Origin: an uncultured virus (IMG/VR IMGVR_UViG_3300042344_000419)
Taxonomy: Duplodnaviria > Heunggongvirae > Uroviricota > Caudoviricetes
Reading direction: 5' to 3' (one strand)
Virus record (IMG/VR): IMGVR_UViG_3300042344_000419
DNA length: 54,506 nt
The notes under the pieces are model-generated. The model saw nothing but the letters and a program-made list of their open reading frames with translations. It was not told the DNA's origin and made no database searches. Shown here in pieces: positions 2,028 to 49,249 of this stretch. The position numbers and the translations under genes are program-made. How positions within the stretch are numbered: the first letter of the stretch is position 1; each line of letters opens with the position of its first letter.

Positions 2028-2071
2028 CTTAATATATGTTGGCTTATACCAAGTCTCGGGTATCAAACCGC

Positions 2072-2254: not shown

Positions 2255-2255
2255 A

Positions 2256-2423: not shown

Positions 2424-3621
2424 GGCTTGATATAGAAATAACGTTGTCGACCGCCTTTGGTCGAATTTCAAAGTATTTCTTGGCTACCTCCTGATTTAGC
2501 GATTCACCATTTACGGTGATCGTCTTGTACGTTCCCAAAAGCATCCCTGGGGAGTGACCGCAGGCGAGTGCCGTCTGTGCTGCATTTTGGGTATATGCTA
2601 GGTGGTACGAGGCAAATGAATGTCTCATACCATTGTCGATCCACTTCGCTGGGAGTCTCGGGTTTTCCTGAGACGCCAACCAAGGGGAAATCAAGGTCGT
2701 GGGGTAACGTGATTTTGTTGAAGCGAGAATGTTTCCTTTAAGATCCTTATAGGGGGCTAGCCATTCAGCAAGGTTGGGCATAAGGGGAGCCAACCGACTT
2801 TGATTGGTCTTAGTGATTTCTCGGTCAAGACGGATATTGCCACCAACCCAGTCGATGTTTTCCCACTTCAAGCGCGCCAGCTCGGCAGAACGAATGCCCG
2901 CAAACAACCCAATCGCGAGGAAGGGGACTAGGTTCTTGTCGCACAAGGTGAGCATAGCTTCCGCTTGTTCTGCGGAGTAAATCTCAACGGGTGGCTTTTT
3001 AAATTTAATCTCCTCTGATTTCTCAGCAGCGTGTTTACGCTCGTCGGACAAATAGCCTTTTCTACGGGCGTAGTTAAACAGGACGATAATTGCTGAACGC
3101 TGATTGTGCCTAGTGCGAGGAGCGTAGGTAGGGTCGGCAAGGTACTCGTCGATATCGTGTGGGGTTACCAGGGAGATAGGTTTGGACATTTTCGAAGCAA
3201 ACCGCCTCAAGAGAGCTCGCATTGTGATCTTCTGAGAATTGGAGTTTAGTGAACTTTCGTTTTTGGCTAGGAACTCTTCCACGAGCGCGGGAACACGGAT
3301 TTCCTTTGTTTCTGCTGGATTGGTTTGGAGATAGGCTTTCACCGCCCGGTCGAGAGGGACGCCGTTAAGCATCGTTTCGCAGGCTCGGTAGTATTGAAGA
3401 TCCCGCATAGTGATTCCTTCGGCTGGCAGAGCGGATCCGTCCGCCAACTGCTCCACGATTACTTTTGCCTCTCGCTTGGCTTCTGCAAGAGATGCCAGCC
3501 CGCGACGCATTCTTTGTTTTCCTACCCGCCAGCACACGAAATAAGTGAAATATTTGCCACGAACTTCGCACTCGTAGATGCGAACTTCTGCCCAGCCCTT
3601 CTTGATAATGATGGGTTTCAT
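2401..3621 (-). CDS. int: Tyrosine recombinase/integrase (phage A)
   Basis: Catalytic motifs GIRSAEL, K in ITKT, MRHSFASY and CGHS...TY. Confidence 0.93.
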   Translation of the reverse strand: MKPIIIKKGWAEVRIYECEVRGKYFTYFVCWRVGKQRMRRGLASLAEAKREAKVIVEQLADGSALPAEGITMRDLQYYRACETMLNGVPLDRAVKAYLQTNPAETKEIRVPALVEEFLAKNESSLNSNSQKITMRALLRRFASKMSKPISLVTPHDIDEYLADPTYAPRTRHNQRSAIIVLFNYARRKGYLSDERKHAAEKSEEIKFKKPPVEIYSAEQAEAMLTLCDKNLVPFLAIGLFAGIRSAELARLKWENIDWVGGNIRLDREITKTNQSRLAPLMPNLAEWLAPYKDLKGNILASTKSRYPTTLISPWLASQENPRLPAKWIDNGMRHSFASYHLAYTQNAAQTALACGHSPGMLLGTYKTITVNGESLNQEVAKKYFEIRPKAVDNVISISSHGKSKKA

Positions 3622-3868
3622 TTCTTGACAGATAGTATTGACAGTCTTGACCAGCGCAACGGAAATCTTTGCCTATTTTTGCCGATTGCGTTTCCGAGGT
3701 TTCCTATGTATGGTCTTTTTATTGAAGGGGTTATCGGAAATTGTTGGAAATAAGGAACTTACGTTTGCGGGGTCATAGCCCAATTGGCAAAAAGTAGAAA
3801 TAGCTATCCTATAGCTAATTACAGAAATCGGTTGAAATTTCTTGACGTTTTCTTGACGGATTTTACAC

Positions 3869-5599: not shown

Positions 5600-5606
5600 A
5601 CACCTC

Positions 5607-5624
5607 TTGACGAATTTTCGTCAA
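5607..5624. promoter_or_regulatory. TTGAC-N8-GTCAA palindrome upstream of portal A (also at 1087-1104 and 7858-7875)
   Basis: TTGACGAATTTTCGTCAA; three copies with the same spacing in phage A. Confidence 0.65.
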
Positions 5625-5643
5625 TGTTAGACTTGCGGGACAC

Positions 5644-7851: not shown

Positions 7852-7881
7852 ATTGTATTGACCTTCTAGCGTCAAGACACA

Positions 7882-8169
7882 ATGAAAATTCAAGATTGGG
7901 CAAAACGAGAAGATCTTCAATTAGAATGGAAAAAACTCTGGGACACTAATGAGACACTTAAAACAGGTTTAGATGTTTTAAAGGATGTTGCCCTCCCAGC
8001 CGAGGGAAGAGCTCCACAAGGTGTCGATACGATTCAGTACAATGCCTTGATGAATGCACGTCGCGAAGGGTATTACGATGCCCTTCGTAACATCGAAGCT
8101 TTGAAAGAAATTATCAAACCAAACGTAGTCAATCCAGAACCCTGGGAAAACCTTAAAAAGGAAGATTAA
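7882..8169 (+). CDS. Small head-associated hypothetical protein
   Basis: 95 aa between portal and scaffold; positional analogue of 13255-13599. Confidence 0.65.
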   Translation: MKIQDWAKREDLQLEWKKLWDTNETLKTGLDVLKDVALPAEGRAPQGVDTIQYNALMNARREGYYDALRNIEALKEIIKPNVVNPEPWENLKKED

Positions 8170-8172
8170 TCT

Positions 8173-9465
8173 ATGTCCACAGAAACAGTAACAGCACCTG
8201 AAGCAACCTCCCAACCGACAACTCCGGCAACACCGACTCCCGCACCAGCTCCCGCCCCAGTTGTTTCTTTTGCTGACGCACTCGACAAAGCGTTAGGGGT
8301 AAGCGAACCCTCTAAAACTCCCATCAATGAAAAGGCAGCGGCTAAAGCTGTAAAAGCAGAACCCGCACCAATACCAGCTCCAGTTGCCAAGGTTGAGGAA
8401 CCAAAGTCTGAAACCAAAACTCCATCCTCGATCCTTGATAAGCTTGGTACTTTAGGGATAGAACCCAAGGAAGAGGTAAAGCCAGAGACTAAGCCCGAAG
8501 AGCCCTCGGCAGAAGTAAGCCAAGAAGCATCTACCCCGGCCGCACAGACTGCCTTTGCCAAACTGACTAAAGAGTTGAGGGAAGCAAAAGCCAAACTCAA
8601 AGACTTTGAGTCCAAAGTCGCTAATCGCACTGAGGCTGTTGAGGATAAGGGAGGGGATGTCAAAACCGATTCTCAGCTTGCTGAGTACCAAGCGAAAATT
8701 GAGCAGTTCCAAAAAGAGCGGGACGAGCTTGAGGGCGAGTTGAGGATTTCAAGGGTAGAGGCCACTCGCGAGTACAAAACCACAATTGGCGAACCGATTA
8801 AACAAACTACCCAGACGATTACGGATATCGCAAAAGTATACGAACTTAAAGCCTCCCCAATTCTGGATGCCGCACTAGAAACCGATGGGGCGAAGCGGAG
8901 AACCCTCCTCAAGGAACTTACGAGTGAGATGGATCCCGTAGACGCTTTAGCCGTACGAACTAAAGTTGATGAGTTGGCCTTGCTCAACGCCAAGCGTGAT
9001 GAAGTTGTTCGAGAAAGCAAATCAGCTTTAGAGGCAATTGCCAAACGCGATGCCGAAGCAGAAAAGGCGAGCCGTGATCAATACGATCAGGAAGCTAGGA
9101 AAGCTTTTGGAGACGTCTGGAATTCCTTTCAGGAGGAGATGCCTTTGCTCAAAAAGATTGAAGGCAACGAGCCTTGGAACAAAACAATCGACGAACTTCG
9201 TGCAAATGCCGAGAAGCTGGATTCCGAACCGTTGGATCACAGGCAGAGAGCCGCTTTGACGTACCAAGCTGTCACCCTGCCACTAGTTGTCCAGGTATTC
9301 AAAGATTACGTATCTAAAACCAATCAGGAACTCGCGAGCCTCAAGAACAACTTGTCTGAGTATCGGAAAGCAACCCCTGGTGTTGGCTCTGGCGCGTCAC
9401 CAGCCAAGTCGGAAAAACTCGATAAAGGTCTTAGCTTCTTAGAAGCCCTCGAAAAAGGTTTGTAA
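8173..9465 (+). CDS. Capsid scaffolding-like protein (phage A)
   Basis: P/A/E/K-rich disordered N-terminus followed by a long acidic coiled coil; position after portal. Confidence 0.65.
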   Translation: MSTETVTAPEATSQPTTPATPTPAPAPAPVVSFADALDKALGVSEPSKTPINEKAAAKAVKAEPAPIPAPVAKVEEPKSETKTPSSILDKLGTLGIEPKEEVKPETKPEEPSAEVSQEASTPAAQTAFAKLTKELREAKAKLKDFESKVANRTEAVEDKGGDVKTDSQLAEYQAKIEQFQKERDELEGELRISRVEATREYKTTIGEPIKQTTQTITDIAKVYELKASPILDAALETDGAKRRTLLKELTSEMDPVDALAVRTKVDELALLNAKRDEVVRESKSALEAIAKRDAEAEKASRDQYDQEARKAFGDVWNSFQEEMPLLKKIEGNEPWNKTIDELRANAEKLDSEPLDHRQRAALTYQAVTLPLVVQVFKDYVSKTNQELASLKNNLSEYRKATPGVGSGASPAKSEKLDKGLSFLEALEKGL

Positions 9466-9468
9466 TCC

Positions 9469-11004
9469 GTGGACGATACGCCCTTCGTAAACGATGGGGC
9501 AGACACGTCCTTGCGGAAGGCGGTCAGTCTCCTTAACAAGATTGAGGCTAAGACTGGTCGACTCAATGGTCTAGACAACGACCCTTGGGTTTTTATTCCA
9601 GACTTAATGATGAGTCGCCCCAATGTTGAAGGTGTAGTAAACTTTACTGGTTATTATAGATTCGATGGGGTCGATCGATGGGGGATTGCGAATTCGGGTT
9701 CTTGGGATTACACGTATATAAAAAGACAAGTTGTAGAAGATTACTACCTCTTCACGCTTATGTATCACTATGGTGAAACCGGGCAAGAGCTTGAGTTCGC
9801 AGCTTTTGAGTCTCCATCGCCAGATTTTCCTACCAGTATGGATCCTTCTGGGGGCACCGTAGTCTCTGGTTCTCTTTTATTTAACACCGAACAACGAGAG
9901 TCTTTTTCGGTAAGGGTAACTAACCCAGTAAATGTCATATTACCCCCAGTAGCTCAATCAACAGCTACGACGAAAGTGAGATCTGTCGATTCTGCTGGGG
10001 ATGACTTAATGGGTTCCAGATCTGATTCCGCAGCAACGACAGATACTGGAACATTTTCAGTCTTAGCTTTTATTAAACGTGGCCTACAAAATTGGACTAC
10101 CCTGCTTGCTAAAATTCCGACTCTTGTGTCGGGTAGGATTCCAGTTGATGGGTCAGGTGTAACACAACCAGTTAGTGGAACTATTGCGTTGGATGCTACA
10201 AGTTTGGCAGCCCTAGAGAACATCAGCGTCACTTTCCCAGCTACCCAGAATGTAAACGTCACCAATGCGGGGTTGAATGTTTCGGTAACGAATTTGCCAG
10301 CAGTTGTTGATAATATCTATAATGAGGCCGATAGTATCAGCTTCAATGTGGGTGAAATTAAAACATTGCTTAATACTACTCGTCCAGTCTCCCTAGAATC
10401 AGTCCCTTCCCACCCAGTTACAGGGCCATTAACGGATACCCAGCTTCGAGCCGCTTCTGTCCCAGTTTCGCAAGCAACAGCAGCAAATCTTAATGCTACA
10501 GTTGTCGGGTCTGGTTCATTTACCGCCGCTCAAGCGACAGCTTCCAATCTAAAGGCGCAAGCCCAACTTCTAGACTCCGCTGGTAGTCTTTTAACTTACG
10601 CGGCAACTGGCACGGCTGGGACTCCAGGAGTAGACGTTGTATCGATACAAGGAGTAAGTAGTGGCGTTGCGGTTGCTGTTTCTGGTCCAGTAACAGACAC
10701 ACAGCTTAGGGCATCCTCTATTCCTGTCAGCGACAGGGGTAGTGTTGGTCAAGCTACTGTTACCACTTTTACAAGCACCTCCTCGCTGGTTTTGATGGCT
10801 TCGAATAGCGCAAGAAAGCTGCTGACAGTCTTCAATGAAGGCGCCGGGATCTTATATCTCTTGTACGGGGCTGGCACCGCCACTACTGCTAACTACTCGG
10901 TTCGTATAGGTTCTGGAGATTACCTAGAAATTGAAAAGTATACTGGGGCTGTTACTGGCATATTTGGTACGACTGGGACAGCTCGTGTTACGGAAATTAG
11001 TTAG
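9469..11004 (+). CDS. Virion surface/fibre-like protein with internal repeats
   Basis: S/T/G/V-rich. Repeat V[TS]GP[LV]TDTQLRA.S[VI]PVS at 10417-10470 and 10678-10731. C-terminal domain homologous to that of 53391-54389. Confidence 0.6.
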   Translation: MDDTPFVNDGADTSLRKAVSLLNKIEAKTGRLNGLDNDPWVFIPDLMMSRPNVEGVVNFTGYYRFDGVDRWGIANSGSWDYTYIKRQVVEDYYLFTLMYHYGETGQELEFAAFESPSPDFPTSMDPSGGTVVSGSLLFNTEQRESFSVRVTNPVNVILPPVAQSTATTKVRSVDSAGDDLMGSRSDSAATTDTGTFSVLAFIKRGLQNWTTLLAKIPTLVSGRIPVDGSGVTQPVSGTIALDATSLAALENISVTFPATQNVNVTNAGLNVSVTNLPAVVDNIYNEADSISFNVGEIKTLLNTTRPVSLESVPSHPVTGPLTDTQLRAASVPVSQATAANLNATVVGSGSFTAAQATASNLKAQAQLLDSAGSLLTYAATGTAGTPGVDVVSIQGVSSGVAVAVSGPVTDTQLRASSIPVSDRGSVGQATVTTFTSTSSLVLMASNSARKLLTVFNEGAGILYLLYGAGTATTANYSVRIGSGDYLEIEKYTGAVTGIFGTTGTARVTEIS

Positions 11005-11121
11005 GGAGTAGGCGATGCCTCTTTATCAAAAAGTCCCTGCGGAACCAGTTGCCGTACAGATGGCAGCGTTGATACGGCCTTCTATTAGTGGAACATCTTT
11101 TACTGCGCCCTATACTACCAA
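10995..11121 (+). repeat. 127-bp exact direct repeat, copy 1
   Basis: AATTAGTTAGGGAGTAGGCGATGCC...TATACTACCAA, identical to 54380-54506. Confidence 0.97.
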
Positions 11122-11605
11122 TTTAACGGGAACTGGGTCAAGATTTCTTACGCAAGTTTCAACGTCGAATAGATTGCAGACTATAACATCGTCGGGGATA
11201 AGGCATAACCTTGGACTCGTAACGTCCGTCGCAAGTAATACAAGCCTAGGTTTCACAACTTTCAGGTCAATTTCGGACAATCCAATTCACGTCATACCGC
11301 TGGATACTGGTTCCCCAACAACTGGAACTACATTCATAACTCAAAAATCTAATACGGCGTTTACAGTAGCAAACGGAAGCTATTACATATTATCAAGTGT
11401 AGGTTTACTTGGGCCGTACTCAATGACGCTCGCTGATTCAAATTTTACACTTCAATTCTCTTACGATTCAGCTTACTTTACGTGGGCAACTGCAAGTTCT
11501 ACCATAAACGAGTTAACCGCAGGATTAAATCTTTTTCCCTCAACAAATTTGACGGCAGGAACAGTCTACTATGTTTCTCCTGATAATATCCTAAGAATTG
11601 CGTGA
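11015..11605 (+). CDS. S/T-rich beta-structured hypothetical (putative virion) protein
   Basis: 196-aa ORF with GGGAG RBS; follows both homologous fibre-like genes. Confidence 0.6.
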   Translation: MPLYQKVPAEPVAVQMAALIRPSISGTSFTAPYTTNLTGTGSRFLTQVSTSNRLQTITSSGIRHNLGLVTSVASNTSLGFTTFRSISDNPIHVIPLDTGSPTTGTTFITQKSNTAFTVANGSYYILSSVGLLGPYSMTLADSNFTLQFSYDSAYFTWATASSTINELTAGLNLFPSTNLTAGTVYYVSPDNILRIA

Positions 11606-11606
11606 T

Positions 11607-11729
11607 ATGCCCCTCCTCCTCCTCGCTCTCTTGTTCTGCTCCTGCTCGCCAAGGCCAACTGAAAGCGAATCACAACTCCCGAGGTATTCTGATATGTCAG
11701 CGGCTCACGACGCAATGAACGCAAAATGA
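11607..11729 (+). CDS. Small putative lipoprotein (40 aa)
   Basis: Manual translation MPLLLLALLFCSCSPRP...: hydrophobic N-terminus then Cys. ATGA overlap with the next ORF. Confidence 0.5.
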   Translation: MPLLLLALLFCSCSPRPTESESQLPRYSDMSAAHDAMNAK

Positions 11730-39576: not shown

Positions 39577-40287
39577 ATGCCAGTCATAATCTTGCCAAAG
39601 CCGAAAAAAGAATTACCCTCAGTGGAGGTCGCAGTGAATAGTGGGAAGGGAGAACCTTCCACGGGCACCGTCTGTTCCTCAGTATGCAGCCCTGTTAAAC
39701 ACACTGCCGACCCTTTATTTTTAGATACTCCAACTGTTAAGCAGGACATGACAGCTGGGGTGTGTAGCCCGCTGGTGTTCACACCGAACCAGTGTACCTC
39801 GATCATCTTGGATGCACAGGTGACTGGGATGGAGAGGGCTAAGATTCTAAGGGGAGGGAAGTCGATCAAAGGTTATGCGAGGACATGCTCCTCGGCATGG
39901 CTCCCGAGGAACGACAAGAACGATTGGATGTATAAGCGGATGATTGAGGCCACGGCTGAGATCAACGCAAACAACTACGGGTTCCAGATCGATGGCATTC
40001 AGTCCATCCAGATCCTGCGGTACCAGCCACTCCAGCGGTTTGATTGGCACTATGACACCTACCCAGATTCTGGCAGGAAACTAACCGCAGTCGTTAACCT
40101 GAGTGACCCGAAGGATTATGTCGGCGGTGGTCTCAGGATGTTGGGTGAACTCCACAACAAGAAGTATGTGAGGGATCGTGGTGCAGGGGTCTGGTTCCCT
40201 AGCTGTCTAAAGCATTGTGCAAAGGCACCTTGGTGGGGCGAGCGTTGGGTTCTGGTTGCTTGGTTCCTCGGAGGAAACTTCCGATGA
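39577..40287 (+). CDS. 2OG-Fe(II) dioxygenase (prolyl-4-hydroxylase-like)
   Basis: FDWHYD, RKLT, DYVGG, FPS..KH and GERWVLVAW. True start may be ATG 39748. Confidence 0.88.
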   Translation: MPVIILPKPKKELPSVEVAVNSGKGEPSTGTVCSSVCSPVKHTADPLFLDTPTVKQDMTAGVCSPLVFTPNQCTSIILDAQVTGMERAKILRGGKSIKGYARTCSSAWLPRNDKNDWMYKRMIEATAEINANNYGFQIDGIQSIQILRYQPLQRFDWHYDTYPDSGRKLTAVVNLSDPKDYVGGGLRMLGELHNKKYVRDRGAGVWFPSCLKHCAKAPWWGERWVLVAWFLGGNFR

Positions 40288-40547
40288 AGTTCACCAAGGA
40301 ATACCTGCAGGAGGCAGCACCCGAGGCGATGAAGGCAGACGGGTACGATGACTGCATCGTCGGGATTGGTTACAGGTGTGGATCAAAAGCCGTGCTGGTC
40401 TACGACATCGACATGGTCGTGGAAAAGATAATGAAGAGGGATGGCTGTAGCTACGACGATGCCCTCGACTTCTTCGAGTACAATATAGGCGGGGCTTATG
40501 TTGGTGACGGGACTCCCTTGTTTATGAATCGGAGGTTCGACCCGTGA
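40284..40547 (+). CDS. Conserved phage hypothetical protein
   Basis: ADGYDDCIVG...VYD...FFEYNI.GAYVG..TP pattern; ATGA start. Confidence 0.7.
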   Translation: MKFTKEYLQEAAPEAMKADGYDDCIVGIGYRCGSKAVLVYDIDMVVEKIMKRDGCSYDDALDFFEYNIGGAYVGDGTPLFMNRRFDP

Positions 40548-40660
40548 TCCAAGAACTCCCCAGCATTCTTATCAGTGCAGTTGTTGTGCTTGGTTTACTA
40601 AGCATCTTCCTCGTCGGGTTTATCTTTATCTGCGACGAGATCATCCAAAGGTTCAAGTGA
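40544..40660 (+). CDS. Small membrane protein (38 aa)
   Basis: MIQELPSILISAVVVLGLLSIFLVGFIFI...; GTGA overlaps at both ends. Confidence 0.55.
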   Translation: MIQELPSILISAVVVLGLLSIFLVGFIFICDEIIQRFK

Positions 40661-41214
40661 TCAAGGTTCGCCTCGAGCTTTATGAGATGCAGCTGGCCTG
40701 CTTGGTTGGCAAGGCGAGGAACTTGTCGGCACTCGTGAAGTCATCGAGGGATGCGTACCCTAGCGACAGCCAGAACGCATGGGGTCAGCATATCGACGGG
40801 GCGGGTGCAGAGCTGGCGTTCGCCAAGTTCATTGGCCTGTACTGGGACGGGTCGGTGGACACCTACCGAAGCGGGACGGGGGATCTTCCGTTCACCCATG
40901 TGGATGTGAAGCACTCCCGAGATGGTAAGTGGAAGGTGAAGGAAAGGGACAGGGGGGAATTGGTTTTGGTTAGGGGCACGATGCCCGAGTACATCATCGA
41001 GGCGTACTGCACTGCCGAGGATGTTAAGAAGTATGCTCCAGCATATAGCGAGCCTAAGTTGTGGGCGGTGCCCGAGGACGAGAGGCAGAGGGATTTCACA
41101 AGCCTCAGAAAAAAGCTGTGGCGTAGGGCATTTGATGCGAGGGAGGGATTGAACCAACCCCCGATCAAATCCGCTACCGAATTACATAAGTGTATTTCAG
41201 TAGGGTCTCTGTAG
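40657..41214 (+). CDS. PD-(D/E)XK-like nuclease-fold protein
   Basis: GAGAELAFAK...GD.....VDVK. Confidence 0.6.
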   Translation: MIKVRLELYEMQLACLVGKARNLSALVKSSRDAYPSDSQNAWGQHIDGAGAELAFAKFIGLYWDGSVDTYRSGTGDLPFTHVDVKHSRDGKWKVKERDRGELVLVRGTMPEYIIEAYCTAEDVKKYAPAYSEPKLWAVPEDERQRDFTSLRKKLWRRAFDAREGLNQPPIKSATELHKCISVGSL

Positions 41215-41341
41215 CCGTCTGCGTAGCAGATGCTAACAGGATAAAAGAAAGACACAGGGTCAGTCCGATAGCCACCCCGCATAGAACAAGCGTGGTTGCA
41301 CGAGCCTCCCGAATCTTTCTGTCAATAGTTAACTCAATCAT
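41174..41341 (-). CDS. Small membrane protein (55 aa)
   Basis: RBS AAAGGAGG; MIELTIDRK...LVLCGVAIGLTLCLSFILLA. Confidence 0.55.
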   Translation of the reverse strand: MIELTIDRKIREARATTLVLCGVAIGLTLCLSFILLASATQTATETLLKYTYVIR

Positions 41342-41360
41342 CTGTTCCTCCTTTCTGTTT

Positions 41361-41630
41361 TTATCTGTCTCCGTACAGGGGTAACTCGAACTTGGTATTG
41401 AACCTATGCTCGAGCCACTTATCTATTGAGACGAGAGATCCTATGATCTCTTTCTTTTCTTTCTGTGTTATGGCTTTCGCCATGACCGAGTCTTTGCCAA
41501 CACGCACGATGTGCCTGAGCCAGTACCACTGATTGATATTGGGGCAGGACTTCATGTTGTTACCCTCACGCCGAATGCGTTTCCGCATTAGCTCGGAGTG
41601 AGTGCCGAGCAACACACCCGACAGACTCAT
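41361..41630 (-). CDS. Hypothetical protein
   Basis: ATGA-coupled ORF in the early operon. Confidence 0.5.
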   Translation of the reverse strand: MSLSGVLLGTHSELMRKRIRREGNNMKSCPNINQWYWLRHIVRVGKDSVMAKAITQKEKKEIIGSLVSIDKWLEHRFNTKFELPLYGDR

Positions 41631-41761
41631 TTCGTTTTCTCCTCGATGAACTCCAGCAACGCCTCTCGGACAATCGATCCGAGTGATCGGTCACCAGACT
41701 CCTTCGATATCTTCTCCATGTCTGCCCGTATTTCGTCGGGCAGGTTGACACTAATTCTCAT
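41627..41761 (-). CDS. CopG-type ribbon-helix-helix protein (44 aa)
   Basis: Manual translation MRISVNLPDEIRADMEKISKESGDRSLGSIVREALLEFIEEKTK; RBS AGGAGG. Confidence 0.75.
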   Translation of the reverse strand: MRISVNLPDEIRADMEKISKESGDRSLGSIVREALLEFIEEKTK

Positions 41762-41945
41762 AGCTCATCTCCTCCTGTACCTGTTCGAGACCAGCCCGAA
41801 CACTTTCTTTGATGTGAACCTCTGCGACACTCTCGTCGAGTTCATCCGTACTTCGGATGACTCCCTCGTCTTTGAGTGTCTCGAGGATGGTTGCAGCAAT
41901 CGTGTCGAGTGCTTCGTCATCCTCAAGAAGCTGGGTTAGCTTCAT
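41751..41945 (-). CDS. Acidic hypothetical protein
   Basis: 64 aa, strongly D/E-rich. Confidence 0.6.
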   Translation of the reverse strand: MKLTQLLEDDEALDTIAATILETLKDEGVIRSTDELDESVAEVHIKESVRAGLEQVQEEMSYEN

Positions 41946-42789
41946 TATTTTCTTCCCTTTCTTGGTTGTCTGTCAGATCACGAACAGCCTTGAAAAGCTG
42001 TTGGAGCTTCCAGTTGTTTTCGTTTCTCAGCTTCTCATCATGGATGCTGAAGTTGAGTCGCAGGTCGCATGAGATGTGGCTCGCATGATTCCCGCTGATC
42101 GTCAGGTCGACTCCGACCTTCCCGACTTTCTTCGTGTGCTTACTCGACGGCCACTCCGAGCGGAGACACTTGTCGAGTGAGTAAGATGAGTTCTTGGTGA
42201 AGACATCTTCCCTTGGATCATCGAGACGGAATTTGCTTCCCTTTATAAATCCAAGAGACCTCCTCAAGGCAAGTACTGTCCTCCTGTTACGCCTCCTGTT
42301 GACTGCATGGAATGCGTTCTCCGACTCGTACTTTGCGGGTAGCTCCCCAGCCAGCTTGTTCAACTCAGCGAACAGGGCTGGCACATAGGCCAAGCTGTCG
42401 CTCTTGAATCTCCACTTGATTGGTAGCTTGTAGTACTGGGAGAGAACCAGCCCCCAGTCGGACTGGATGCAGGTTGCCTCACCTCGCCCGCCTTGAAGGT
42501 AAACTCTTATGTCTGATCCACGGACAAAGATTTCTCCTAAGCCGTGGAGCTGGGAATAAGCCTCGGCCTTTTCCTGTATCCACAGACTCGCCTTGTGCCA
42601 CGCATCGTTTGATTGCGTGTCCCAAGTTGCCTTGCTGGGGATCAGTCGAGGGATGTTTCCCCCGAGGGCATTTGTCACCGCATTCCTGATGATCCTTTCC
42701 GACACCTGCTTGGGTAGCAGGGACAGGAGGTTGGTCTTGGTGACCCAAACCTCCTGACCCTTGCCAGCTCTGTTTTTAATTACGCTCAT
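41923..42789 (-). CDS. Hypothetical protein
   Basis: 288-aa ORF, ATGA-coupled. Confidence 0.65.
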   Translation of the reverse strand: MSVIKNRAGKGQEVWVTKTNLLSLLPKQVSERIIRNAVTNALGGNIPRLIPSKATWDTQSNDAWHKASLWIQEKAEAYSQLHGLGEIFVRGSDIRVYLQGGRGEATCIQSDWGLVLSQYYKLPIKWRFKSDSLAYVPALFAELNKLAGELPAKYESENAFHAVNRRRNRRTVLALRRSLGFIKGSKFRLDDPREDVFTKNSSYSLDKCLRSEWPSSKHTKKVGKVGVDLTISGNHASHISCDLRLNFSIHDEKLRNENNWKLQQLFKAVRDLTDNQEREENNEANPAS

Positions 42790-43307
42790 TTTGCCACCAC
42801 CTTTCTCTTGCTGGATTTGTTTCGCTTTAGTTTAGGGAAGTGCTTGCCGTCTCTAAGATGCGAGATGTCTCCCGCAAGGTAGTAGGCAAACGCCTCGGTC
42901 AACCCGTAGGCCAAGGCCAATGCTGGATCTGTAAACCCAAAGTCACTGCTTATTGATCCAGCCTTAGCTTCCCAGCAGGGTGAGGAGGTGGACGGAACGA
43001 ACCGACCATCCTCAGTGCGACAGAGTAGAATCTCAATCTCTCCGTCACCCTTGGCGAAGATGGATGGAGTAAACTCCCAGCCATGTCCGTCCTCTGGCAC
43101 ACCGCTCCTACTGATCAACTGTTTCGCATAATCTGTTGCCTTGGGTCGGATGATTGATTCGATATCGTTAATCGAATCTGAGTCATCTTCTCCGTATAAC
43201 CTCTGACACTTTTCGTATGCGTTATTAAGTTCAAGAATCTTTGACCTGTCAGATTTGCTGAGTCGGTCAAATATCTCTTTGATGTGTGTTTTGTTTTTGT
43301 TGTTCAT
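42786..43307 (-). CDS. Hypothetical protein
   Basis: Start moved to ATG 43307 (MNNKNK...) behind AAAAGGAACAGACAAC. Confidence 0.65.
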   Translation of the reverse strand: MNNKNKTHIKEIFDRLSKSDRSKILELNNAYEKCQRLYGEDDSDSINDIESIIRPKATDYAKQLISRSGVPEDGHGWEFTPSIFAKGDGEIEILLCRTEDGRFVPSTSSPCWEAKAGSISSDFGFTDPALALAYGLTEAFAYYLAGDISHLRDGKHFPKLKRNKSSKRKVVAK

Positions 43308-43378
43308 GTTGTCTGTTCCTTTTAGTTGTGGCTTGGGAGCTGACCCACATTGGGTGAGCCAGCTCCCTCGCCGATTTG

Positions 43379-44629
43379 TCATCCCTCCCGAGGGATGTTG
43401 ACCAGCTCCCCATACGGGGGCTGGATGCCTTCAGTGTTGGAGTGGATCGCCCAGACAGTCGGGCAAACCTCAGCTCCCCAGTTGCTGACTTGGCCGTCAG
43501 TGATGAAGACATGTGCCTTCACCTCGTTGCCCTGACTGATCAGGTCATCGAGTTTCACCGAGGCATCGTCGAAGTCTGTGCCACCACCGCCCCGCAACTT
43601 GGGGAGGGGATCGCCGTCGAGGTATTCCTCGAAGCCGTAGTGTTCGGTATCGCACGAGCCGATGAAGACTTTCGCCTTGATCGACTGGGCACACTCCTGC
43701 ACCTCGGCGATGGCCTGCTCGTAAAGCTCGGGGCTGATGCTCCCCGAGGTGTCCACCGAGATCGCCAGTACGCCTGCACCCTCAGAGCTGAGGCTCGGGA
43801 GGATTGCGGTGCGGTGACGGCGAGATGGCCTACGCCAGCTCCAGTCATCGTTGGTCTTCTCGGTCAGCAGTCGGCGAAGTGTGTCCCGCCAGTTGACCGC
43901 TGGTTTGCGTGAGCTACCCAGCAGTCGGTCAAGCCCAGCGGGCAGGTTGCCAGCGAGTCGGGCTGTAGCCTCTGCACCAGCTACTGACTGAAGAATCTTT
44001 TCAGATACCTCGGCCTTCTTCGCTTCGCTCAGTGGCTTGCCGTCCTCGGTTGGGTCTTCAACCTTGCCCCACTCGGATGACTTGTCTGGCTCGCTGTCAG
44101 ACGATTGCTCGTCGGACTGCTCATCGCCACCAGCTCCCGAGCTGGATGACTTGTCATCCTGTTTGCTGGATGACTGGTCATCCTGCTTCTGCTGTTTCTG
44201 CTTCTGCTTCTCAGCCCTGTCTTTTGCCAGTATCTCGTAGACCTGATACTCGGACAGGTTGCGGTACTTTTCATCGAGGAGACCGCCCTCGGGCAGGTAG
44301 TACCCGCCGTCTTTTAGAATCAGGTTGATGACATAGTCACACGCCTGATTCCAGAGCTGAGGGTCACGGCTTCCACGATTGACCGAGTGGAGCAGTGCGA
44401 TGTGAAGCACCTCGTGAGCGATCAGCCCAACAACCTGCCTCACATCCAGCTTCTCGAGGAAGCTGGGTGCGTAGCGGATTCTCGTGCCGTCCGTGCATGC
44501 CGTCTCGACTGCCTCGTCCAGCTCACTGGGCAGACCGCATGCGATTGCCCCGAAGAACGGGGCATCGCACACGATCCGCACCCGAGCCTTCTCGAGTATC
44601 GACTCTGCAGATAGTTTTTTCTTGTTCAT
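43379..44629 (-). CDS. Metallopeptidase-VWA protein (DUF2201-like)
   Basis: TACTDG, AHEVLH (HExxH), D/S/Q-rich linker, MIDAS DTSGS, GGGTDF and ITDG. Confidence 0.9.
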   Translation of the reverse strand: MNKKKLSAESILEKARVRIVCDAPFFGAIACGLPSELDEAVETACTDGTRIRYAPSFLEKLDVRQVVGLIAHEVLHIALLHSVNRGSRDPQLWNQACDYVINLILKDGGYYLPEGGLLDEKYRNLSEYQVYEILAKDRAEKQKQKQQKQDDQSSSKQDDKSSSSGAGGDEQSDEQSSDSEPDKSSEWGKVEDPTEDGKPLSEAKKAEVSEKILQSVAGAEATARLAGNLPAGLDRLLGSSRKPAVNWRDTLRRLLTEKTNDDWSWRRPSRRHRTAILPSLSSEGAGVLAISVDTSGSISPELYEQAIAEVQECAQSIKAKVFIGSCDTEHYGFEEYLDGDPLPKLRGGGGTDFDDASVKLDDLISQGNEVKAHVFITDGQVSNWGAEVCPTVWAIHSNTEGIQPPYGELVNIPREG

Positions 44630-44647
44630 CGCTGAACCTCCTTTTTG

Positions 44648-45682
44648 TTAGGCCACCAACAGGTGACCACGATTCGCTACCCACTCTCCGTAGTGCGGGC
44701 AGATCTCAACTTTTGGTGCGACCTTGGTCGCTGTCTTTGAGGCGAAAGCCTCGAACGCCTCGCCGAGTCGAGGGATGTAGCTGAAAAACGCTTTCGAGTT
44801 TTTCGCATCAACCTTCAGCCTCGCCGTCAACGCACCGATCAAAGCCCACCGAACCTCGGGCTTGGTCGGCACCGATGCCTTGGCGGGATTCGCCAGTATC
44901 TCGTCGGGCAGAGTTGCCAGCCCCTCGTAGACCGAGAGGAAGCCGTGCAGGTCAACGCCCGCCGTCCCGAGCGAGGCGGTGAGCCAAGCGGGAGAGGTGA
45001 GCTTTGCCTTCACGAGTCTGTCAACTGCCTCCCACGAGCGAGGACACGCCACTTTCTTGGCGAACTCGGCGGTGGGTTCTTCAGCGAACCGATCAGGTCG
45101 GAACTGCAGGAAGCTGAGAATCTCGGGGGAGATCCCAGCACCGCCTGCCCATCCGAGCCAGTGGTTGAGGTCGGGCAGAACTTCGATGGTCGCATCGAAT
45201 CGCCCGATCAACGGGGAGATGAGCCAGCCCACGCCAGCCCGATCAGTGCGGGCATTCGTCGCTCCGACGAACTGCACACAATCGGGGATGCGTTTGCCTT
45301 CGACCTCCCGTGCCCAGATGATGTGTTGCAGACCTTTCTGCACCGCCTCACTGGCCTGACCCAAGTCATCGAGGAAGCACAGGGTGGGCTTCTTTGCTTT
45401 CAGCAATCTCCTGAGCAGTCCGATTGGATCGAACACCGCCGACCCGTCGATCACCACAGGCAGACCTTTGTAGTCTGTGGGGTCAGAGCAGGCAGGGGTA
45501 TCCACGATGACCTCGGGGTCACCGCCGATCTCGGAAGCGACCCGCTTCCAAGCATCCTGCACGATGGCAGTTTTGCCGACTCCCGCCCGCCCGATGAGCA
45601 GGCAGGAGATTTTGTTTTTGAATGCCGTTGCGAGATCGCTCGCAAGGTTACCGATTTTTATTTGGTTGATGTTGTTGTTCAT
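44648..45682 (-). CDS. MoxR-type AAA+ ATPase
   Basis: GRAGVGKT, FLDDL, ATN and CPRSWE. Confidence 0.88.
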   Translation of the reverse strand: MNNNINQIKIGNLASDLATAFKNKISCLLIGRAGVGKTAIVQDAWKRVASEIGGDPEVIVDTPACSDPTDYKGLPVVIDGSAVFDPIGLLRRLLKAKKPTLCFLDDLGQASEAVQKGLQHIIWAREVEGKRIPDCVQFVGATNARTDRAGVGWLISPLIGRFDATIEVLPDLNHWLGWAGGAGISPEILSFLQFRPDRFAEEPTAEFAKKVACPRSWEAVDRLVKAKLTSPAWLTASLGTAGVDLHGFLSVYEGLATLPDEILANPAKASVPTKPEVRWALIGALTARLKVDAKNSKAFFSYIPRLGEAFEAFASKTATKVAPKVEICPHYGEWVANRGHLLVA

Positions 45683-45792
45683 TGTCTATTCCTCCGTTTT
45701 GTTTTTGTTTTGTTTGTGCACCCTGCATCCGCAGGGATCATGGCAACGCACCCCCGAGGAGATGCGTTGCTGATGATCACTGGTTCTGATTC

Positions 45793-45972
45793 TCAGCCCC
45801 TGTAACCACGCTGAATTAGCCCGAACCTGATCTCCGTTGTCTCGTCAACGATCTCTTTGCAAAGTTCTTTTATTTTTGCGAAGTCATCGTCGGGAGTGAC
45901 TGAGGCGATGTGTGCTATCTCGCATATCTCGCCAAGTCTCTCGAATATCTTTATGAGTTTTTCGTCGTTCAT
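45793..45972 (-). CDS. Hypothetical protein (59 aa)
   Basis: Manual translation MNDEKLIKIFERLGEI...; RBS AAAGGAACAGA. Confidence 0.6.
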   Translation of the reverse strand: MNDEKLIKIFERLGEICEIAHIASVTPDDDFAKIKELCKEIVDETTEIRFGLIQRGYRG

Positions 45973-46000
45973 GTTATCTGTTCCTTTCTGTTGAGTGCTG

Positions 46001-46873
46001 TTAAGCAGATGCCACAGTCCCGAGTGAGGACTGTAGACTCTGCAGTGTGTTTAGTACCGACTTGGATGCGACCACCGCATCCTTCCTGACCGCCTTCGAG
46101 TCCCGCAGAATCTGCGGGTCGTTGAATGCGACCAGAGTTTTCCGAGCGTCCGAGAGTGCCTGTGCAATCTCGGCGTTGCCCGTGAAGTTCAACGCCTCTG
46201 CCTCGGCGATGGTCTCGCTGATGGCAGTGATGGTTGAGTCACGAAAGATCGCCTTGGGATTCGCCAAGGTGCGACCAAAGTGAGCGACCACATCAGCCAC
46301 CCTGTCGAGCAGCTGTCTGTGAGCGTCAGCCAGTCGGGCTGAGATCGCCTGCTGGGCACGAGCCTGCAGGCGGGGGTCGTTGAGGTCGGTCTCCCGAGGG
46401 AATGCCTCAGCGTCGAATGTCACCTCGAAGCGGGAGCGAAACTCGCTCGAGCTGGAGGGGTACTCCGATGCGTTGAACAATCCGTTCAACCTGACCTCGG
46501 CCTCGTTCCTGATCTCGTCGTAGCGGGCACAGAGATCGTCGGCGAGTCGGTTGAACTCGTCGACCAGTCTGTTGTGTGCCTCGGTGAAGGCTTGAAACTG
46601 AGAGATCGGGAGAACCCGACTCTCTCCCCGCCACGGGAGGGTGAACTTGTAGAAGTTCTCCCTGATCCGAGAGGCAACCTGATTGACCGACTTCAAATAG
46701 TCGGGTCGGATCAGTGCCTTGACGAATCGCCCGCCCTGCCCAGCGGAGATCGAGTGATTGGCCTCGACCTCGCTGGTGGCTTTACGATCCTGTCTGCCAC
46801 CGATGAAACGCCTGATCGAGAGATCGACCAGCCGTGCGTAGCTGTTGAGTTGCGTTGTTGTTATGTTGTTCAT
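46001..46873 (-). CDS. DUF3150-like phage protein
   Basis: LV.LSI, D.KA..EV, K.LI, TLPW, RLNGLFN..EYP and IFRDST motifs; upstream of the AAA/VWA pair. Confidence 0.7.
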   Translation of the reverse strand: MNNITTTQLNSYARLVDLSIRRFIGGRQDRKATSEVEANHSISAGQGGRFVKALIRPDYLKSVNQVASRIRENFYKFTLPWRGESRVLPISQFQAFTEAHNRLVDEFNRLADDLCARYDEIRNEAEVRLNGLFNASEYPSSSSEFRSRFEVTFDAEAFPRETDLNDPRLQARAQQAISARLADAHRQLLDRVADVVAHFGRTLANPKAIFRDSTITAISETIAEAEALNFTGNAEIAQALSDARKTLVAFNDPQILRDSKAVRKDAVVASKSVLNTLQSLQSSLGTVASA

Positions 46874-46977
46874 GTCTGCTCCTTCTGCCCTGTCGGGCGG
46901 TTTTGTTTTTGTGTGTGCCCCCTGATCTCAGGGATCACTACAACCCTCGGGGCATTCCTCCCGAGGGCTGAGGGTGA

Positions 46978-47151
46978 TCACTGCTTTCGCAACCACTCCG
47001 CTGGGACTGACATTTGCAGTCCTTTCGGGAGTGGGATGACCACTGCCTTGTCACCGCCAAGGAAGCCCCTGAAATTTACAAGGGTGTCCTCGTTGGTGAA
47101 GGGCGAGTGCATCACCAAAGTCTCGTCGACTTGGAATCGCTCTTCGTCCAT
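46978..47151 (-). CDS. Hypothetical protein (57 aa)
   Basis: Manual translation MDEERFQVDETL...; RBS AAGGAGG. Confidence 0.6.
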   Translation of the reverse strand: MDEERFQVDETLVMHSPFTNEDTLVNFRGFLGGDKAVVIPLPKGLQMSVPAEWLRKQ

Positions 47152-47166
47152 GTGTTCCTCCTTTTG

Positions 47167-47331
47167 TTATTTGTTTTTTAGTGCGTTCAATTCCTGACCA
47201 AGCACTGCGACTCGGTTGAAGGCATCCAGTGCCGTATCTGCCACAACCCTCAACGCTTCCCTCAGCCGAGCGACCTCGGCCTCGGATTTACTCAACTTTA
47301 CTCTCACATCGCTAATAGTTTCCGATTTCAT
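47167..47331 (-). CDS. Coiled-coil hypothetical protein (54 aa)
   Basis: Start moved to ATG 47331 behind AAGGAGGAGCAGAC. Confidence 0.6.
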   Translation of the reverse strand: MKSETISDVRVKLSKSEAEVARLREALRVVADTALDAFNRVAVLGQELNALKNK

Positions 47332-47573
47332 TTTGTCTGCTCCTCCTTCTTTTTTTGTTCCTCCGATTCCAAACATTGATCGCAACCGCACCGACGAGAA
47401 TCTCTCAAAAGAGAGAAGCACTGGGTGGGTGTGTCCTCGTGGATGATGTGCGAGCCTTCCTCGTAGCCGTAGTATCCGACTTTCAAGTAGACCCAGAACC
47501 CATCACCAACTGACCGCTCGTCGCTGATTTCCTCGACCCTGTGGTCTTTAAGTATCTTTTGAATTATTGTCAT
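47328..47573 (-). CDS. Hypothetical protein, first gene of the early operon
   Basis: RBS AGGAGGACAGAC; CxCxxC near the C-terminus. Confidence 0.65.
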   Translation of the reverse strand: MTIIQKILKDHRVEEISDERSVGDGFWVYLKVGYYGYEEGSHIIHEDTPTQCFSLLRDSRRCGCDQCLESEEQKKKEEQTK

Positions 47574-48002
47574 GTTGTCTGTCCTCCTGTTTTTTGTATG
47601 ACCTCCGCTTACTGGGCTGAGATCATGCCTGCCCCCCGACTAACATTGCCGAGGGGCAGGGTATGATATCAGTTCTTAAATTTTAATCAGCCGATGCAAC
47701 TGCTCCCGCTAGTCGTGCATCGCTCGAGTGATTAGCCCGAGGCCGTTCTGTTTATCCAAGAATCAAAGTGCCCTCCGAAAGTTTCCCGCATCCCTGCGGG
47801 TCACTGCCAGCTGTACTCGTTGCAAATTTTAGACCTCGAAACTTTTCTGGTCACCCGATCATAAAAGATCGTCGGTACCATGTTATCGTCTCGGGATTGC
47901 GGGGAGTCTCCGATATGTGGGGAGAATTTCCCTCGAGGAACGCACTCTGAAGCGTCGAACGACTTAGTATCGCCTGTAGAAGTTGTGGTGAGAACTGTCA
48001 CC

Positions 48003-48031
48003 ACTTTGCACCATTATGATTATCCTGTCAA
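48003..48031 (-). promoter_or_regulatory. Putative early promoter
   Basis: Minus-strand TTGACA(48031)-17-CAAAGT; adjacent palindrome AACTGCTTTGTAGAT at 48030-48044. Confidence 0.5.
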
Positions 48032-48625
48032 CTGCTTTGTAGATTGTTTATCTGCTTTATGACACAAGACAGGGGAAGGCAGGGATCGTCATCACACAGC
48101 CCAAAATATCGCACGAGGATGCCCGAGGAATCGATTTGAGGGTCGGGGTAGTATGGGGACAGCGGGTAGCTTTCACTCGAGGGCAGGTCTCATGCACGAA
48201 TCTTGCGAACCATTTATTTTTATAAGCAGAAAGGTTCGCTTGGTTTCGATTGGGTATCTCTTGCGAGTGATAGACGGATGGATTCCAGAGGGGAGGGAGT
48301 TGTCATAGGGAGAGAGCTTACTCATCGATGGGTTTATCTCGTGAGCAGTAAGCCTCCCCGCAAGGGGAGAGGCTTGTGAGTTGTCACCGATTGGGAAATT
48401 CGCTCACAGGAAAATTCTTTTCATGCTCGGGTTTGACCAGCCCTCACGCTCGAAGGATCGAGTATTTTCGCCGTATTTATTATGAGCTGGAGGAGTTCAC
48501 GAGTGCCAGCTCTCGAGATATTCGCAACCCACACGGCTCTGTTCGATCTTTCATCCGCTGGGAGGACAACTGCTTAACAGCTGAAAGTGGTCGACAGATT
48601 AAAGATTGCAATTAAAAACTGATCC

Positions 48626-49249
48626 GTGCCGAAAGAATTAATGAGGAGGAAGCGGGCGAAGAAAGTTGAGCCAGCAAAAGACCTGAGCGTCGAGATGGTG
48701 AACGGCTCACCAGTTGTCACGATGCCAGAAAAGATTCCCGATCCTGTTCCTGTTCCTGTTCCAGTCGTGCAAAAAAGAGGACGAGGAAAGCCGAGGACAA
48801 CATTTGAAAACTTCAGTCAGACGAAAATCAAAGAGCTGTATCGACTCGCTCGTCTCGGGATGAGTCTGAAAACTATGGCAGGTGCTGTGGGCATTGGGAT
48901 CGGGAAGCTGATCGAGATGAAGGAGCAGAGCAGGGAATTTGCCGAGAGACTAGATGCAGAGCGAGAGAACTTCATCGCCGACAACCTCACAAAGCTCAGG
49001 AATCACGCTCAATCATCGCCTCAGTCAGCCCAATGGCTACTCGAGAGAGTAAGACCAGAGGAGTTCAGCCAGAAGACAGAGCTAAGAGTCTCAGGTGGAA
49101 CGACTAACACTCTCTCGTTGGATGTATCATCTGCCATCTGTCAGAGATTGAGTGAGGCACGATTGCAGAGCATAGATGTTATTCCGTTAACAGAACCACC
49201 ACCACAGCTTATGGAAGTACCTACCACTGAACAACAATGTTCATCATAA
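48626..49249 (+). CDS. terS: Terminase small subunit-like HTH protein
   Basis: HTH LGMSLKTMAGAVGIG and SAQWLLERVRPEEF motif; upstream of TerL. Confidence 0.65.
   Translation: MPKELMRRKRAKKVEPAKDLSVEMVNGSPVVTMPEKIPDPVPVPVPVVQKRGRGKPRTTFENFSQTKIKELYRLARLGMSLKTMAGAVGIGIGKLIEMKEQSREFAERLDAERENFIADNLTKLRNHAQSSPQSAQWLLERVRPEEFSQKTELRVSGGTTNTLSLDVSSAICQRLSEARLQSIDVIPLTEPPPQLMEVPTTEQQCSS

What the first reader, a model, noticed from the sequence alone, without database searches (positions are those of the whole stretch)
45683..47670. Repeated covarying RNA motif in front of early genes
Seen on the coding (minus) strand. Before the AAA gene (45721-45782): CAGU GAUCAU-ca-GCAACGCAUCUC..GGGGUGCGUUGC-c-AUGAUC, then hairpin CCCUGC/GCAGGG. 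Before the DUF3150-like gene (46920-46983): CAGU GAUCAC-ccu-CAGCCCUCGGG..CCCGAGGGUUG-ua-GUGAUC, then CCCUGA/UCAGGG. Before the first early gene (47621-47670): AUCAU-ac-CCUGCCCCUCGGC..GUCGGGGGGCAGG-c-AUGAU. The upper stems differ in sequence but keep 11-13 bp, the basal stem covaries (U-A versus C-G), and wobbles are G-U only on this strand. Each is followed by an A/C-rich spacer and an SD. Inference: a conserved cis-acting RNA element. RNase III-type processing sites as in the T7 early region fit well, but it may be an undescribed structured motif.
Basis: partly seen in the sequence, partly recalled or inferred. Interest (0 to 1): 0.75.

Follow-up and report, generated by a model that had tools for sequence, protein, structure and literature searches.

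The report
Two-state RNA hairpins between phage genes
An uncultured phage places three copies of a conserved folded RNA signal in front of its early genes, most likely so that a host enzyme cuts the long message into protected pieces, as phage T7 does, though no cutting has been shown.

Summary
The three copies are real, sit on the coding strand of the early operon, and covary in related phages (93.4% of cells paired, 14 of 20 pairs compensatory). The element is larger than reported: a 10-position lower stem, a 2x1 loop and an 11-14-bp upper stem. The 3' arm of the lower stem has a second partner downstream, giving two folds within 0-5 kcal/mol in 20 of 20 instances. The ribosome-binding site is not sequestered by either fold.

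Best reading (0.65): an RNase III processing signal working like T7 R0.3-R1.3. The predicted cut is R|UGA, after which the downstream message refolds into a blunt 5'-terminal protective hairpin. Geometry fits, but the match to E. coli sequence rules is not significant at family level (p 0.16-0.18), and no RNA end was mapped.

The upstream-most copy sits directly behind an unreported, covarying ~330-nt structured leader RNA, which it would release. There is no Rfam match, and the motif was found only in this phage clade. Verdict: new variant of a known kind.

The parts
47617..47672 (-). Copy 3 (first in the transcript), long fold A: lower stem 47672-47663 with 47626-47617, 2x1 loop, 13-bp upper stem 47660-47628. 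Predicted cuts 47661|47660 and 47626|47625.
   Evidence: (61.8 bits); cut sites inferred
47598..47626 (-). Copy 3 alternative fold B / predicted 5'-terminal hairpin of the downstream product
46929..46983 (-). Copy 2, fold A: lower stem 46983-46974 with 46938-46929, upper stem 46971-46940. The TGA stop of the upstream 57-aa ORF (46980-46978) lies inside the 5' arm. Predicted 3'-strand cut 46938|46937.
   Evidence: (66.0 bits)
46915..46938 (-). Copy 2 alternative fold B / predicted 5'-terminal hairpin
46885..46900 (-). Small extra hairpin just before the SD of the 290-aa gene; on the plus strand it is followed by a T-run (terminator-like for antisense transcription)
45732..45782 (-). Copy 1, fold A: lower stem 45782-45773 with 45741-45732, 12-bp upper stem 45770-45743. 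Predicted cuts 45771|45770 and 45741|45740.
   Evidence: (62.3 bits)
45717..45740 (-). Copy 1 alternative fold B / predicted 5'-terminal hairpin
45683..45716 (-). A/C-rich unstructured spacer and SD (GGAGG 45695-45691) of the AAA gene; equivalent spacers follow copies 2 and 3
48003..48031 (-). Putative sigma-70-type early promoter (-35 at 48031-48026, -10 at 48008-48003); recognisable in relatives down to 61-64% AAA identity; not called by the consensus scan
   Evidence: conservation; not listed; function inferred
47673..48000 (-). ~330-nt structured non-coding leader RNA candidate (helical core 47963-47692) between the promoter and copy 3
   Evidence: weak RNA-contig hint; no Rfam hit
47328..47573 (-). 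First early ORF (81 aa), strain-variable, no family
46001..46873 (-). 290-aa DUF3150-like ORF
   Evidence: no Pfam hit
44648..45682 (-). AAA ATPase (AAA_5, phrog_1297)
43379..44629 (-). Metallopeptidase-like plus VWA-like protein (DUF2201_N, DUF2201)

Best explanation
Each copy is a processing signal for the host double-strand nuclease RNase III in a polycistronic early transcript. SHOWN: the two-storey helix, its conservation by compensatory change, the competing downstream helix, and an SD that neither fold sequesters. INFERRED: (1) host polymerase starts near 47997 and reads leader, copy 3, small genes, copy 2, the DUF3150-like gene, copy 1, AAA and VWA; (2) fold A forms first because it is complete before the rival strand is transcribed; (3) RNase III cuts the 3' strand at R|UGA, alone or together with a cut at the foot of the upper stem; (4) the freed 3' arm pairs with its downstream partner, so the new 5'-monophosphate end is buried in a blunt hairpin, followed by an open A/C-rich spacer and SD; (5) if only the 3' strand is cut, the upstream piece keeps a 3' hairpin. 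The result is separately stable early messages, and at copy 3 a free ~330-nt structured RNA.
For: Helix of about two turns kept by compensatory change while terminal loops vary freely in length and sequence, as expected for a shape-and-length reader. Upper stem 11-14 bp, never under 11, in 14 of 14 distinct hairpins; 11 bp between cut and loop is the shortest reactive length for E. coli RNase III (PMC1540722 section 10). With the in vivo E. coli pair table (PMC6212723 Table S4) the best mean register is R|UGA with the bulge between the cuts. It puts U-A at D' in 12 of 12 stems, A-U/U-A at D in 11 of 12 (the only A-U-rich column of a G-C-rich stem, and it covaries A-U to U-A) and U-G at J in 9 of 12. 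A bulge between the cuts was seen in 80% of E. coli distance-3 targets. Independently, the downstream helix ends at that same U: the first base of the product is paired in 19 of 20 instances for this cut, against 11 of 20 for a cut one base upstream. The scoring method ranks the known register first for 3 of 5 T7 sites, which score -26.7 to -31.5 against -22.8 to -26.4 here (T7 positions other than R1.1 recalled). Placement matches T7: only in the early operon, between genes. Copy 3 follows the leader RNA in 11 of 11 true leader loci; relatives without the leader lack that copy and start with a short leader straight after the promoter.
Against: No RNA end was mapped. With column permutation and the best of all registers allowed, the observed score is reached by 15.8-18.1% of 3000 permutations (0.6-0.7% only for the fixed register); only 5 of 12 stems individually prefer this register. 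C and C' are C-G (10 of 12, 12 of 12) and K is C-G/G-C where E. coli prefers A-U/U-A; position A is unpaired. Fold A is only marginally favoured (unconstrained lower-stem probability 0.01-0.97). One RNA-library contig runs uncut across copy 2 (X3, 46896-47052), which fits precursor RNA or DNA but shows no cut. The host is unknown, so E. coli rules may not apply. The sequences are related and mosaic, so pair counts overstate independent events. The motif is dispensable before AAA (absent in L003, L004, L016).
Confidence: 0.65

Rival explanations
1. Non-cleaved structural element: the helix is bound but not cut (by RNase III or another double-strand binder, host or phage), or acts only as a barrier to 3' exonucleases after decay starts elsewhere.
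For: C-G pairs in the proximal box and a bulge near the centre; binding without cleavage is documented for RNase III (PMC1540722 passages). The family-level sequence match is not significant.
Against: A barrier needs only the upper stem; it does not explain the compensatory conservation of both the lower stem and a rival helix for the same strand, nor why the rival helix ends at the best-scoring cut.
Confidence: 0.14
2. Processing by another nuclease (phage-encoded, or a host enzyme with different rules) at the same element, with the same refolding outcome.
For: Invariant UCA/UGA core and C-G pair depart from E. coli RNase III preferences; several early genes have no known family.
Against: No RNase III-like or RNA-specific nuclease family among the 44 ORFs scanned (the nuclease hits are PD-(D/E)XK, resolvase, exonuclease and one HNH-labelled PHROG); the 11-bp minimum and D/D' pattern suit RNase III.
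Confidence: 0.08
3. Translational or transcriptional switch (riboswitch-like or ribosome-driven) in which folds A and B set expression of the next gene without cutting.
For: Two near-isoenergetic folds in 20 of 20. Three unrelated upstream genes stop at the TGA inside the 5' arm, and six other copies begin 2-13 nt after a stop, so a terminating ribosome could melt fold A.
Against: SD unpaired probability in the window is 0.87/0.86, 0.84/0.49 and 0.76/0.94 for folds A/B, so no on-off occlusion; no terminator-like site at any copy on the coding strand; copy 3 has no upstream ORF; no conserved loop bases for a ligand.
Confidence: 0.07
4. Self-cleaving ribozyme.
For: Repeated structured element before genes; a cut there would give the same refolded product.
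Against: No Rfam match at gathering score or at E up to 10; unpaired positions are not conserved and there is no multi-helix core.
Confidence: 0.03
5. DNA-level element: single-strand hairpin promoter, operator, or recombination cassette boundary.
For: G-T wobbles also form in single-stranded DNA; gene content between copies varies between strains; arms contain GATC.
Against: The fold is on the coding, not the template strand; no RNA polymerase family was detected among the 44 ORFs or in the 2701-aa protein; GATC is lost in some copies and is common genome-wide (343 sites); a host-type promoter already heads the operon. A side role in module exchange is not excluded.
Confidence: 0.03

Closest known systems
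RNase III processing signals of the phage T7 early polycistronic mRNA (R0.3, R0.5, R1, R1.1, R1.3)
   Same: Between genes of an early transcript made from a host-type promoter; 9-13-bp upper stem over an asymmetric loop and a lower stem; U-G-A-U just 3' of the upper stem in R0.3, R0.5 and R1.1. Five signals in a ~7000-nt precursor (PMC3867540 passage); R1.1 cut at nt 5887 (PMC8708148 passage).
   Different: No sequence homology (model R2 has no hit in T7 400-8000). The loop is 2x1 and the lower stem nearly perfect. T7 downstream products fold weakly (-0.7 to -6.8 kcal/mol over 45 nt), whereas here a conserved rival helix of -9 kcal/mol or better is built in. The best register is one base upstream of the T7-like U|GA. 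The phage encodes no detected RNA polymerase and carries an integrase.
E. coli intramolecular RNase III targets (PMC6212723) and the minimal substrate uR1.1 (PMC1540722)
   Same: Helix length, 11-bp minimum, A-U/U-A at D and D', G-C/G-U at E, U-G at J, bulge between the cuts.
   Different: C-G at C and C', C-G/G-C at K, unpaired A; family-level match not significant.
5'-terminal stem-loop mRNA stabilisers (ompA, papA type)
   Same: A paired 5' end blocks 5'-dependent decay by RppH and RNase E (PMC3997798 passage). Distant relatives L160-L163 have a short hairpin leader directly after the promoter, ending in the same A/C-rich spacer.
   Different: Here the hairpin would arise only after an internal cut and refolding.
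Two-state intercistronic hairpins noted in other phages by this scan (e1-6290773, e1-6177982, e1-6117796; unchecked AI notes)
   Same: Described as hairpins between early genes with an alternative fold before the next gene, read as processing sites.
   Different: Other genomes; sequence look-ups of this motif and region found no look-alike. I did not see their sequences.

Membership tests
RNase III processing signal (T7 early type) | Double helix of about two turns | tested here: met
   20 scored positions, 93.4% paired, 14 of 20 compensatory, slid controls 31-44% paired
RNase III processing signal (T7 early type) | At least 11 bp between the cut and the apical loop | tested here: met
   Upper stem 11-14 bp in 14 of 14 distinct hairpins, given the predicted register; rule from PMC1540722 section 10
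RNase III processing signal (T7 early type) | Asymmetric loop or bulge at the cleavage site | tested here: met
   2x1 loop in all instances (partly by construction of the descriptor, but the same in the MAFFT alignments)
RNase III processing signal (T7 early type) | A-U/U-A at proximal-box position 2 (D and D') | tested here: met
   D' U-A 12 of 12, D A-U/U-A 11 of 12 in the best register
RNase III processing signal (T7 early type) | Preferred A-U at proximal-box position 3 and U-A at distal-box position 1 (E. coli preferences, not absolute) | tested here: not met
   C: C-G 10, G-C 2; C': C-G 12; K: C-G 10, G-C 2 of 12. C-G occurs at C and C' in 10 of 85 E. coli targets each
RNase III processing signal (T7 early type) | Overall match to the in vivo pair-frequency table beyond chance | tested here: inconclusive
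   p 0.16-0.18 over all registers, 0.006-0.007 for the fixed register; T7 control 3 of 5 first-ranked
RNase III processing signal (T7 early type) | Intercistronic position in an early polycistron | tested here: met
   All copies between promoter and AAA gene, none elsewhere in the window or in G002-G005; polycistronic transcription itself is inferred
RNase III processing signal (T7 early type) | Cleavage by RNase III giving 5'-P and 3'-OH ends | not testable with these tools
   Only assembled contigs were offered
T7 R0.3-R1.3 sequence family | Sequence homology with the T7 sites | tested here: not met
   No R2 hit in T7 400-8000; direct comparison
Rfam-catalogued ribozymes, riboswitches and phage motifs | Match to a covariance model | tested here: not met
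   0 hits at gathering score; 2 chance hits at E 1.7 and 4.6 in 40000-49000; 3 chance hits in four relative loci
Translational riboswitch / SD-occluding switch | SD paired in one fold and free in the other | tested here: not met
   SD unpaired at least 0.68 in fold A for 19 of 20, at least 0.42 in fold B for 20 of 20
Intrinsic terminator | Hairpin followed by a U-run on the coding strand | tested here: not met
   No minus-strand terminator-like site at any copy
tRNA / tmRNA (for the leader RNA) | ARAGORN call | tested here: not met
   0 genes in the window

The most novel reading that the evidence does not exclude
The element is a translation-gated processing switch and the maturation signal of a new phage non-coding RNA. 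In the intercistronic copies a ribosome terminating at the stop codon in or next to the 5' arm flips fold A (cleavable) to fold B (uncleavable), so cutting reports whether the upstream gene is translated. Copy 3, with no upstream gene, is always cut and releases an abundant ~330-nt multi-helix RNA of an undescribed class that acts early in infection.
Probability: 0.2. Interest if true: 0.72.

Novelty: new variant of a known kind. Interest (0 to 1): 0.45.

Why it matters
RNase III signals in phage early transcripts are known from T7. What this adds is a compact design in which the same strand first completes the nuclease substrate and then, once cut, caps the new 5' end. That would solve the usual problem that RNase III cuts destabilise the downstream RNA, and it gives a portable ~100-nt module testable in E. 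coli and usable for expressing operons as separate stable messages. It also points to an undescribed ~330-nt structured phage RNA whose 3' end would be made by this signal.

Tried and rejected
No own genome was held. Rfam: nothing. ARAGORN: nothing. Cultured phages: no DNA match to 45650-48600; one weak capsid match at 26%. Host not found: no capsid relative in genome contigs.

Model R1 was built with a structure string that I mis-registered by two columns (one search showed 29.6% paired). Its hits served only to find divergent copy-3 variants; all claims rest on the corrected structure and model R2.

A tighter pattern gave 18 stretches, 8 from other contigs, none with the hairpin. A genome pattern scan also hit its limit; 80 of the 120 stretches were tested with R2, best 20.6 bits, none of the six shown with a proper upper stem. 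R2 found nothing in the 61-64% AAA relatives or in 68 loci of distant AAA homologues; a sequence-free hairpin test upstream of 61 of those gave 1 A/T-rich hit. The leader pattern gave 17 stretches, 11 true and 6 chance. The upstream-element pattern gave 4 stretches, 1 new and chance.

RNA contigs: holes and contig ends near the copies were not used as evidence of cutting; X2 and X3 have no cover over the leader. An adapter-bounded insert ending at 47667 in X1 is a single contig and is not counted.

T7 GenBank records did not list the RNase III sites. Fremin 2023 (PMC10690425): contig ids and short motif terms not found in the readable supplements, but the alignment archives and PDFs could not be read, so prior listing there is not excluded. 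Literature searches for this architecture returned nothing describing it in the listings. GATC methylation, N4-type hairpin promoter, terminator and SD-occlusion readings were rejected as given under rivals. No complex or structure prediction was run.

Full report
CONTEXT. The window from about 11.7 kb to its end matches a 43-45-kb uncultured phage. Records G002 (43,053 bp) and G003 (44,591 bp, direct terminal repeats) carry both its capsid gene and its early region. Window 1-11.7 kb has no match in them and has its own terminase and integrase, so it is probably another element. The phage has terminase, portal-like, capsid and tail-fibre genes, a 2701-aa virion protein, an integrase and a DnaB helicase; no RNA polymerase family was detected in 44 ORFs. 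The early operon runs on the minus strand from 47573 to about 41.2 kb: small strain-variable ORFs, a 290-aa DUF3150-like gene (Atlas lead only), an AAA ATPase and a DUF2201/VWA protein. The host is unknown. RNA libraries holding part of the region are labelled lake water (four laid; four study codes of one year, possibly one campaign).

OBSERVATION. The three copies are as described. A descriptor gives 3 hits in the window, against at most 1 in 100 random copies. Coding-strand folds have z of -3.5 to -4.4. From loci found by AAA and 290-aa protein homology I collected 16 distinct hairpins. With a 10-position lower stem, a 2x1 loop and 10 scored upper pairs, 93.4% of 320 cells pair, 14 of 20 pairs show compensatory change, 0 of 500 shuffles reach the covariation score, and slid controls pair 31-44%. 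These sequences are related and mosaic, so the counts are not independent events. G-U outnumbers A-C 18 to 2. Invariant positions are UCA/UGA in the lower stem and one C-G pair in the upper stem; loop letters and loop length vary.

The 3' arm of the lower stem has a second partner 16-23 nt downstream. In 20 of 20 context-distinct instances (from 10 loci chosen to cover the variants) the two folds lie within 0.0-5.1 kcal/mol, the long fold never being the worse. In 12 distinct arm pairs the rival helix has U-A at its second position in 11 and a pair at the first position in only 4, so it effectively begins at the U of R-U-G-A. The SD follows an A/C-rich spacer and is largely open in both folds. 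No coding-strand terminator is present. In intercistronic copies the 5' arm starts at or just after the upstream stop: three unrelated genes stop at the TGA inside the arm and six others 2-13 nt before it; for one copy type in L156 the upstream gene was not resolved.

DISTRIBUTION. Model R2 finds 3 copies in the window, 2 in G002, 1 in G003, 2 in G004 and 3 in G005, all in the early operon, and none in G001, a partial record. It finds none in relatives at 61-64% AAA identity, in 68 loci of distant AAA homologues, or in T7 400-8000. The copy before AAA is absent in L003, L004 and L016. The motif is therefore clade-restricted and is gained or lost with gene modules.

THE LEADER. A conserved promoter-like sequence lies at 48031-48003. 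Between it and copy 3 is a ~330-nt ORF-free region that folds with z -2.68 (other strand -1.88). In 8 sequences its consensus has 71 pairs, 96.8% of cells paired and 20 pairs compensatory; most compensatory changes come from one divergent sequence, and the structure was derived from this alignment. It has no Rfam or ARAGORN match. Copy 3 follows it in 11 of 11 true leader loci. G003 and L160-L163 lack both leader and copy 3 and have a short leader right after the promoter. In RNA libraries X1 and X4, contigs over the leader have depth 90-202 against about 11-38 for the long contigs over the conserved genes; X2 and X3 show no cover there. Contig depth is a poor measure and DNA may be present, so this is a weak hint only.

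MECHANISM TEST. I scored every register with the E. coli in vivo pair table (PMC6212723 Table S4; section 27 and passages read). The best mean is the 3'-strand cut R|UGA with the extra loop base lying between the two cuts. It places U-A at D' (12 of 12 stems), A-U/U-A at D (11 of 12), G-C/G-U/A-U at E and U-G at J (9 of 12). It also starts the upper product at the foot of an 11-14-bp helix, matching the 11-bp minimum in PMC1540722 (sections 10, 11, 22 and passages read). Against it: C and C' are C-G, K is C-G/G-C, and permuting columns reaches the same best-of-all-registers score in 15.8-18.1% of 3000 trials. As a control the method ranks the known register first in 3 of 5 T7 sites, second in one and third in one; the R1.1 position is from PMC8708148 (passage) and the other four are recalled from Dunn and Studier 1983, not seen. 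The T7-like cut one base later (U|GA) remains possible. That the scoring register and the end of the rival helix point to the same U is the main reason for preferring processing followed by refolding. B. subtilis RNase III is reported to share these preferences (10.1101/2023.03.12.532304, passages), which makes them plausible for an unknown host. Protection by paired 5' ends is taken from PMC3997798 (passages), and single-strand cuts leaving 3' hairpins from PMC3867540 (passages).

WORKS LIKE VERSUS IS. It most likely works like the T7 early RNase III signals. It is not a sequence homologue of them, two E. coli base-pair preferences are not met, and cleavage is untested, so I do not file it as a proven member.

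NOVELTY. No Rfam family matches. Four literature searches (listings and abstract starts only) showed no description of it. For PMC10690425 I saw the listing, the supplement list, two supplement searches and part 1 of one table; its alignment archives and PDFs were unreadable, so the motif or the leader may be among its 10,000 candidates. Earlier notes of this scan describe similar two-state hairpins in other phages; they are unchecked AI notes and not evidence, but they suggest the design recurs. Verdict: real, new variant of a known kind, interest 0.45.

Noticed in passing
window 47673-48000, minus strand: ~330-nt structured non-coding leader RNA candidate with long-range covarying helices, no Rfam match, high contig depth in 2 of 4 RNA libraries. 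A possible pseudoknot between a conserved pyrimidine run and the GGGA loop was seen by eye and not tested. Deserves its own finding.
   Followed up: partly
window about 48282-48558, minus strand; homologues in L156, L159, L160, L163: Second conserved multi-helix element between the small-terminase gene start and the early promoter, kept in relatives down to 61% AAA identity (41 predicted pairs, 14 compensatory in 5 sequences). In L160-L163 a promoter-like sequence lies just upstream. No Rfam match; strand and function not settled.
   Followed up: partly
window 46885-46900: Small hairpin next to the SD of the 290-aa gene, changing sequence but kept in relatives, including those without the motif there; reads as a terminator for antisense transcription on the plus strand.
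   Followed up: partly
window 47983-48003, minus strand: Inverted repeat overlapping the -10 box and predicted start of the early promoter; varies between strains; could be an operator or a 5'-terminal hairpin of the leader.
   Followed up: no
window 1-11700: Not matched by G001-G003; carries its own helicase, resolvase, integrase and terminase, so the window joins two phage-like elements (chimeric assembly or an insertion).
   Followed up: partly
window 41627-41761, minus strand: 44-aa ORF with a weak hit to the nickel-responsive regulator NikR model (E 0.0015); by recall a ribbon-helix-helix type, a possible repressor at the end of the early operon.
   Followed up: no
L160:5590-5660, L163:4315-4385: In distant relatives the early promoter is followed directly by a 45-nt hairpin leader ending in the same A/C-rich spacer and SD, resembling the predicted processed 5' end.
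   Followed up: partly
whole window: GATC is over-represented (343 sites against 251 +/- 13 in shuffles).
   Followed up: no
window 45793-45972 and 47167-47573; L154, L155, L022, L024, L164, L026: The small ORFs between the copies are swapped between strains that are otherwise 97-100% alike, each with a near-identical ribosome-binding leader, suggesting cassette exchange.
   Followed up: partly
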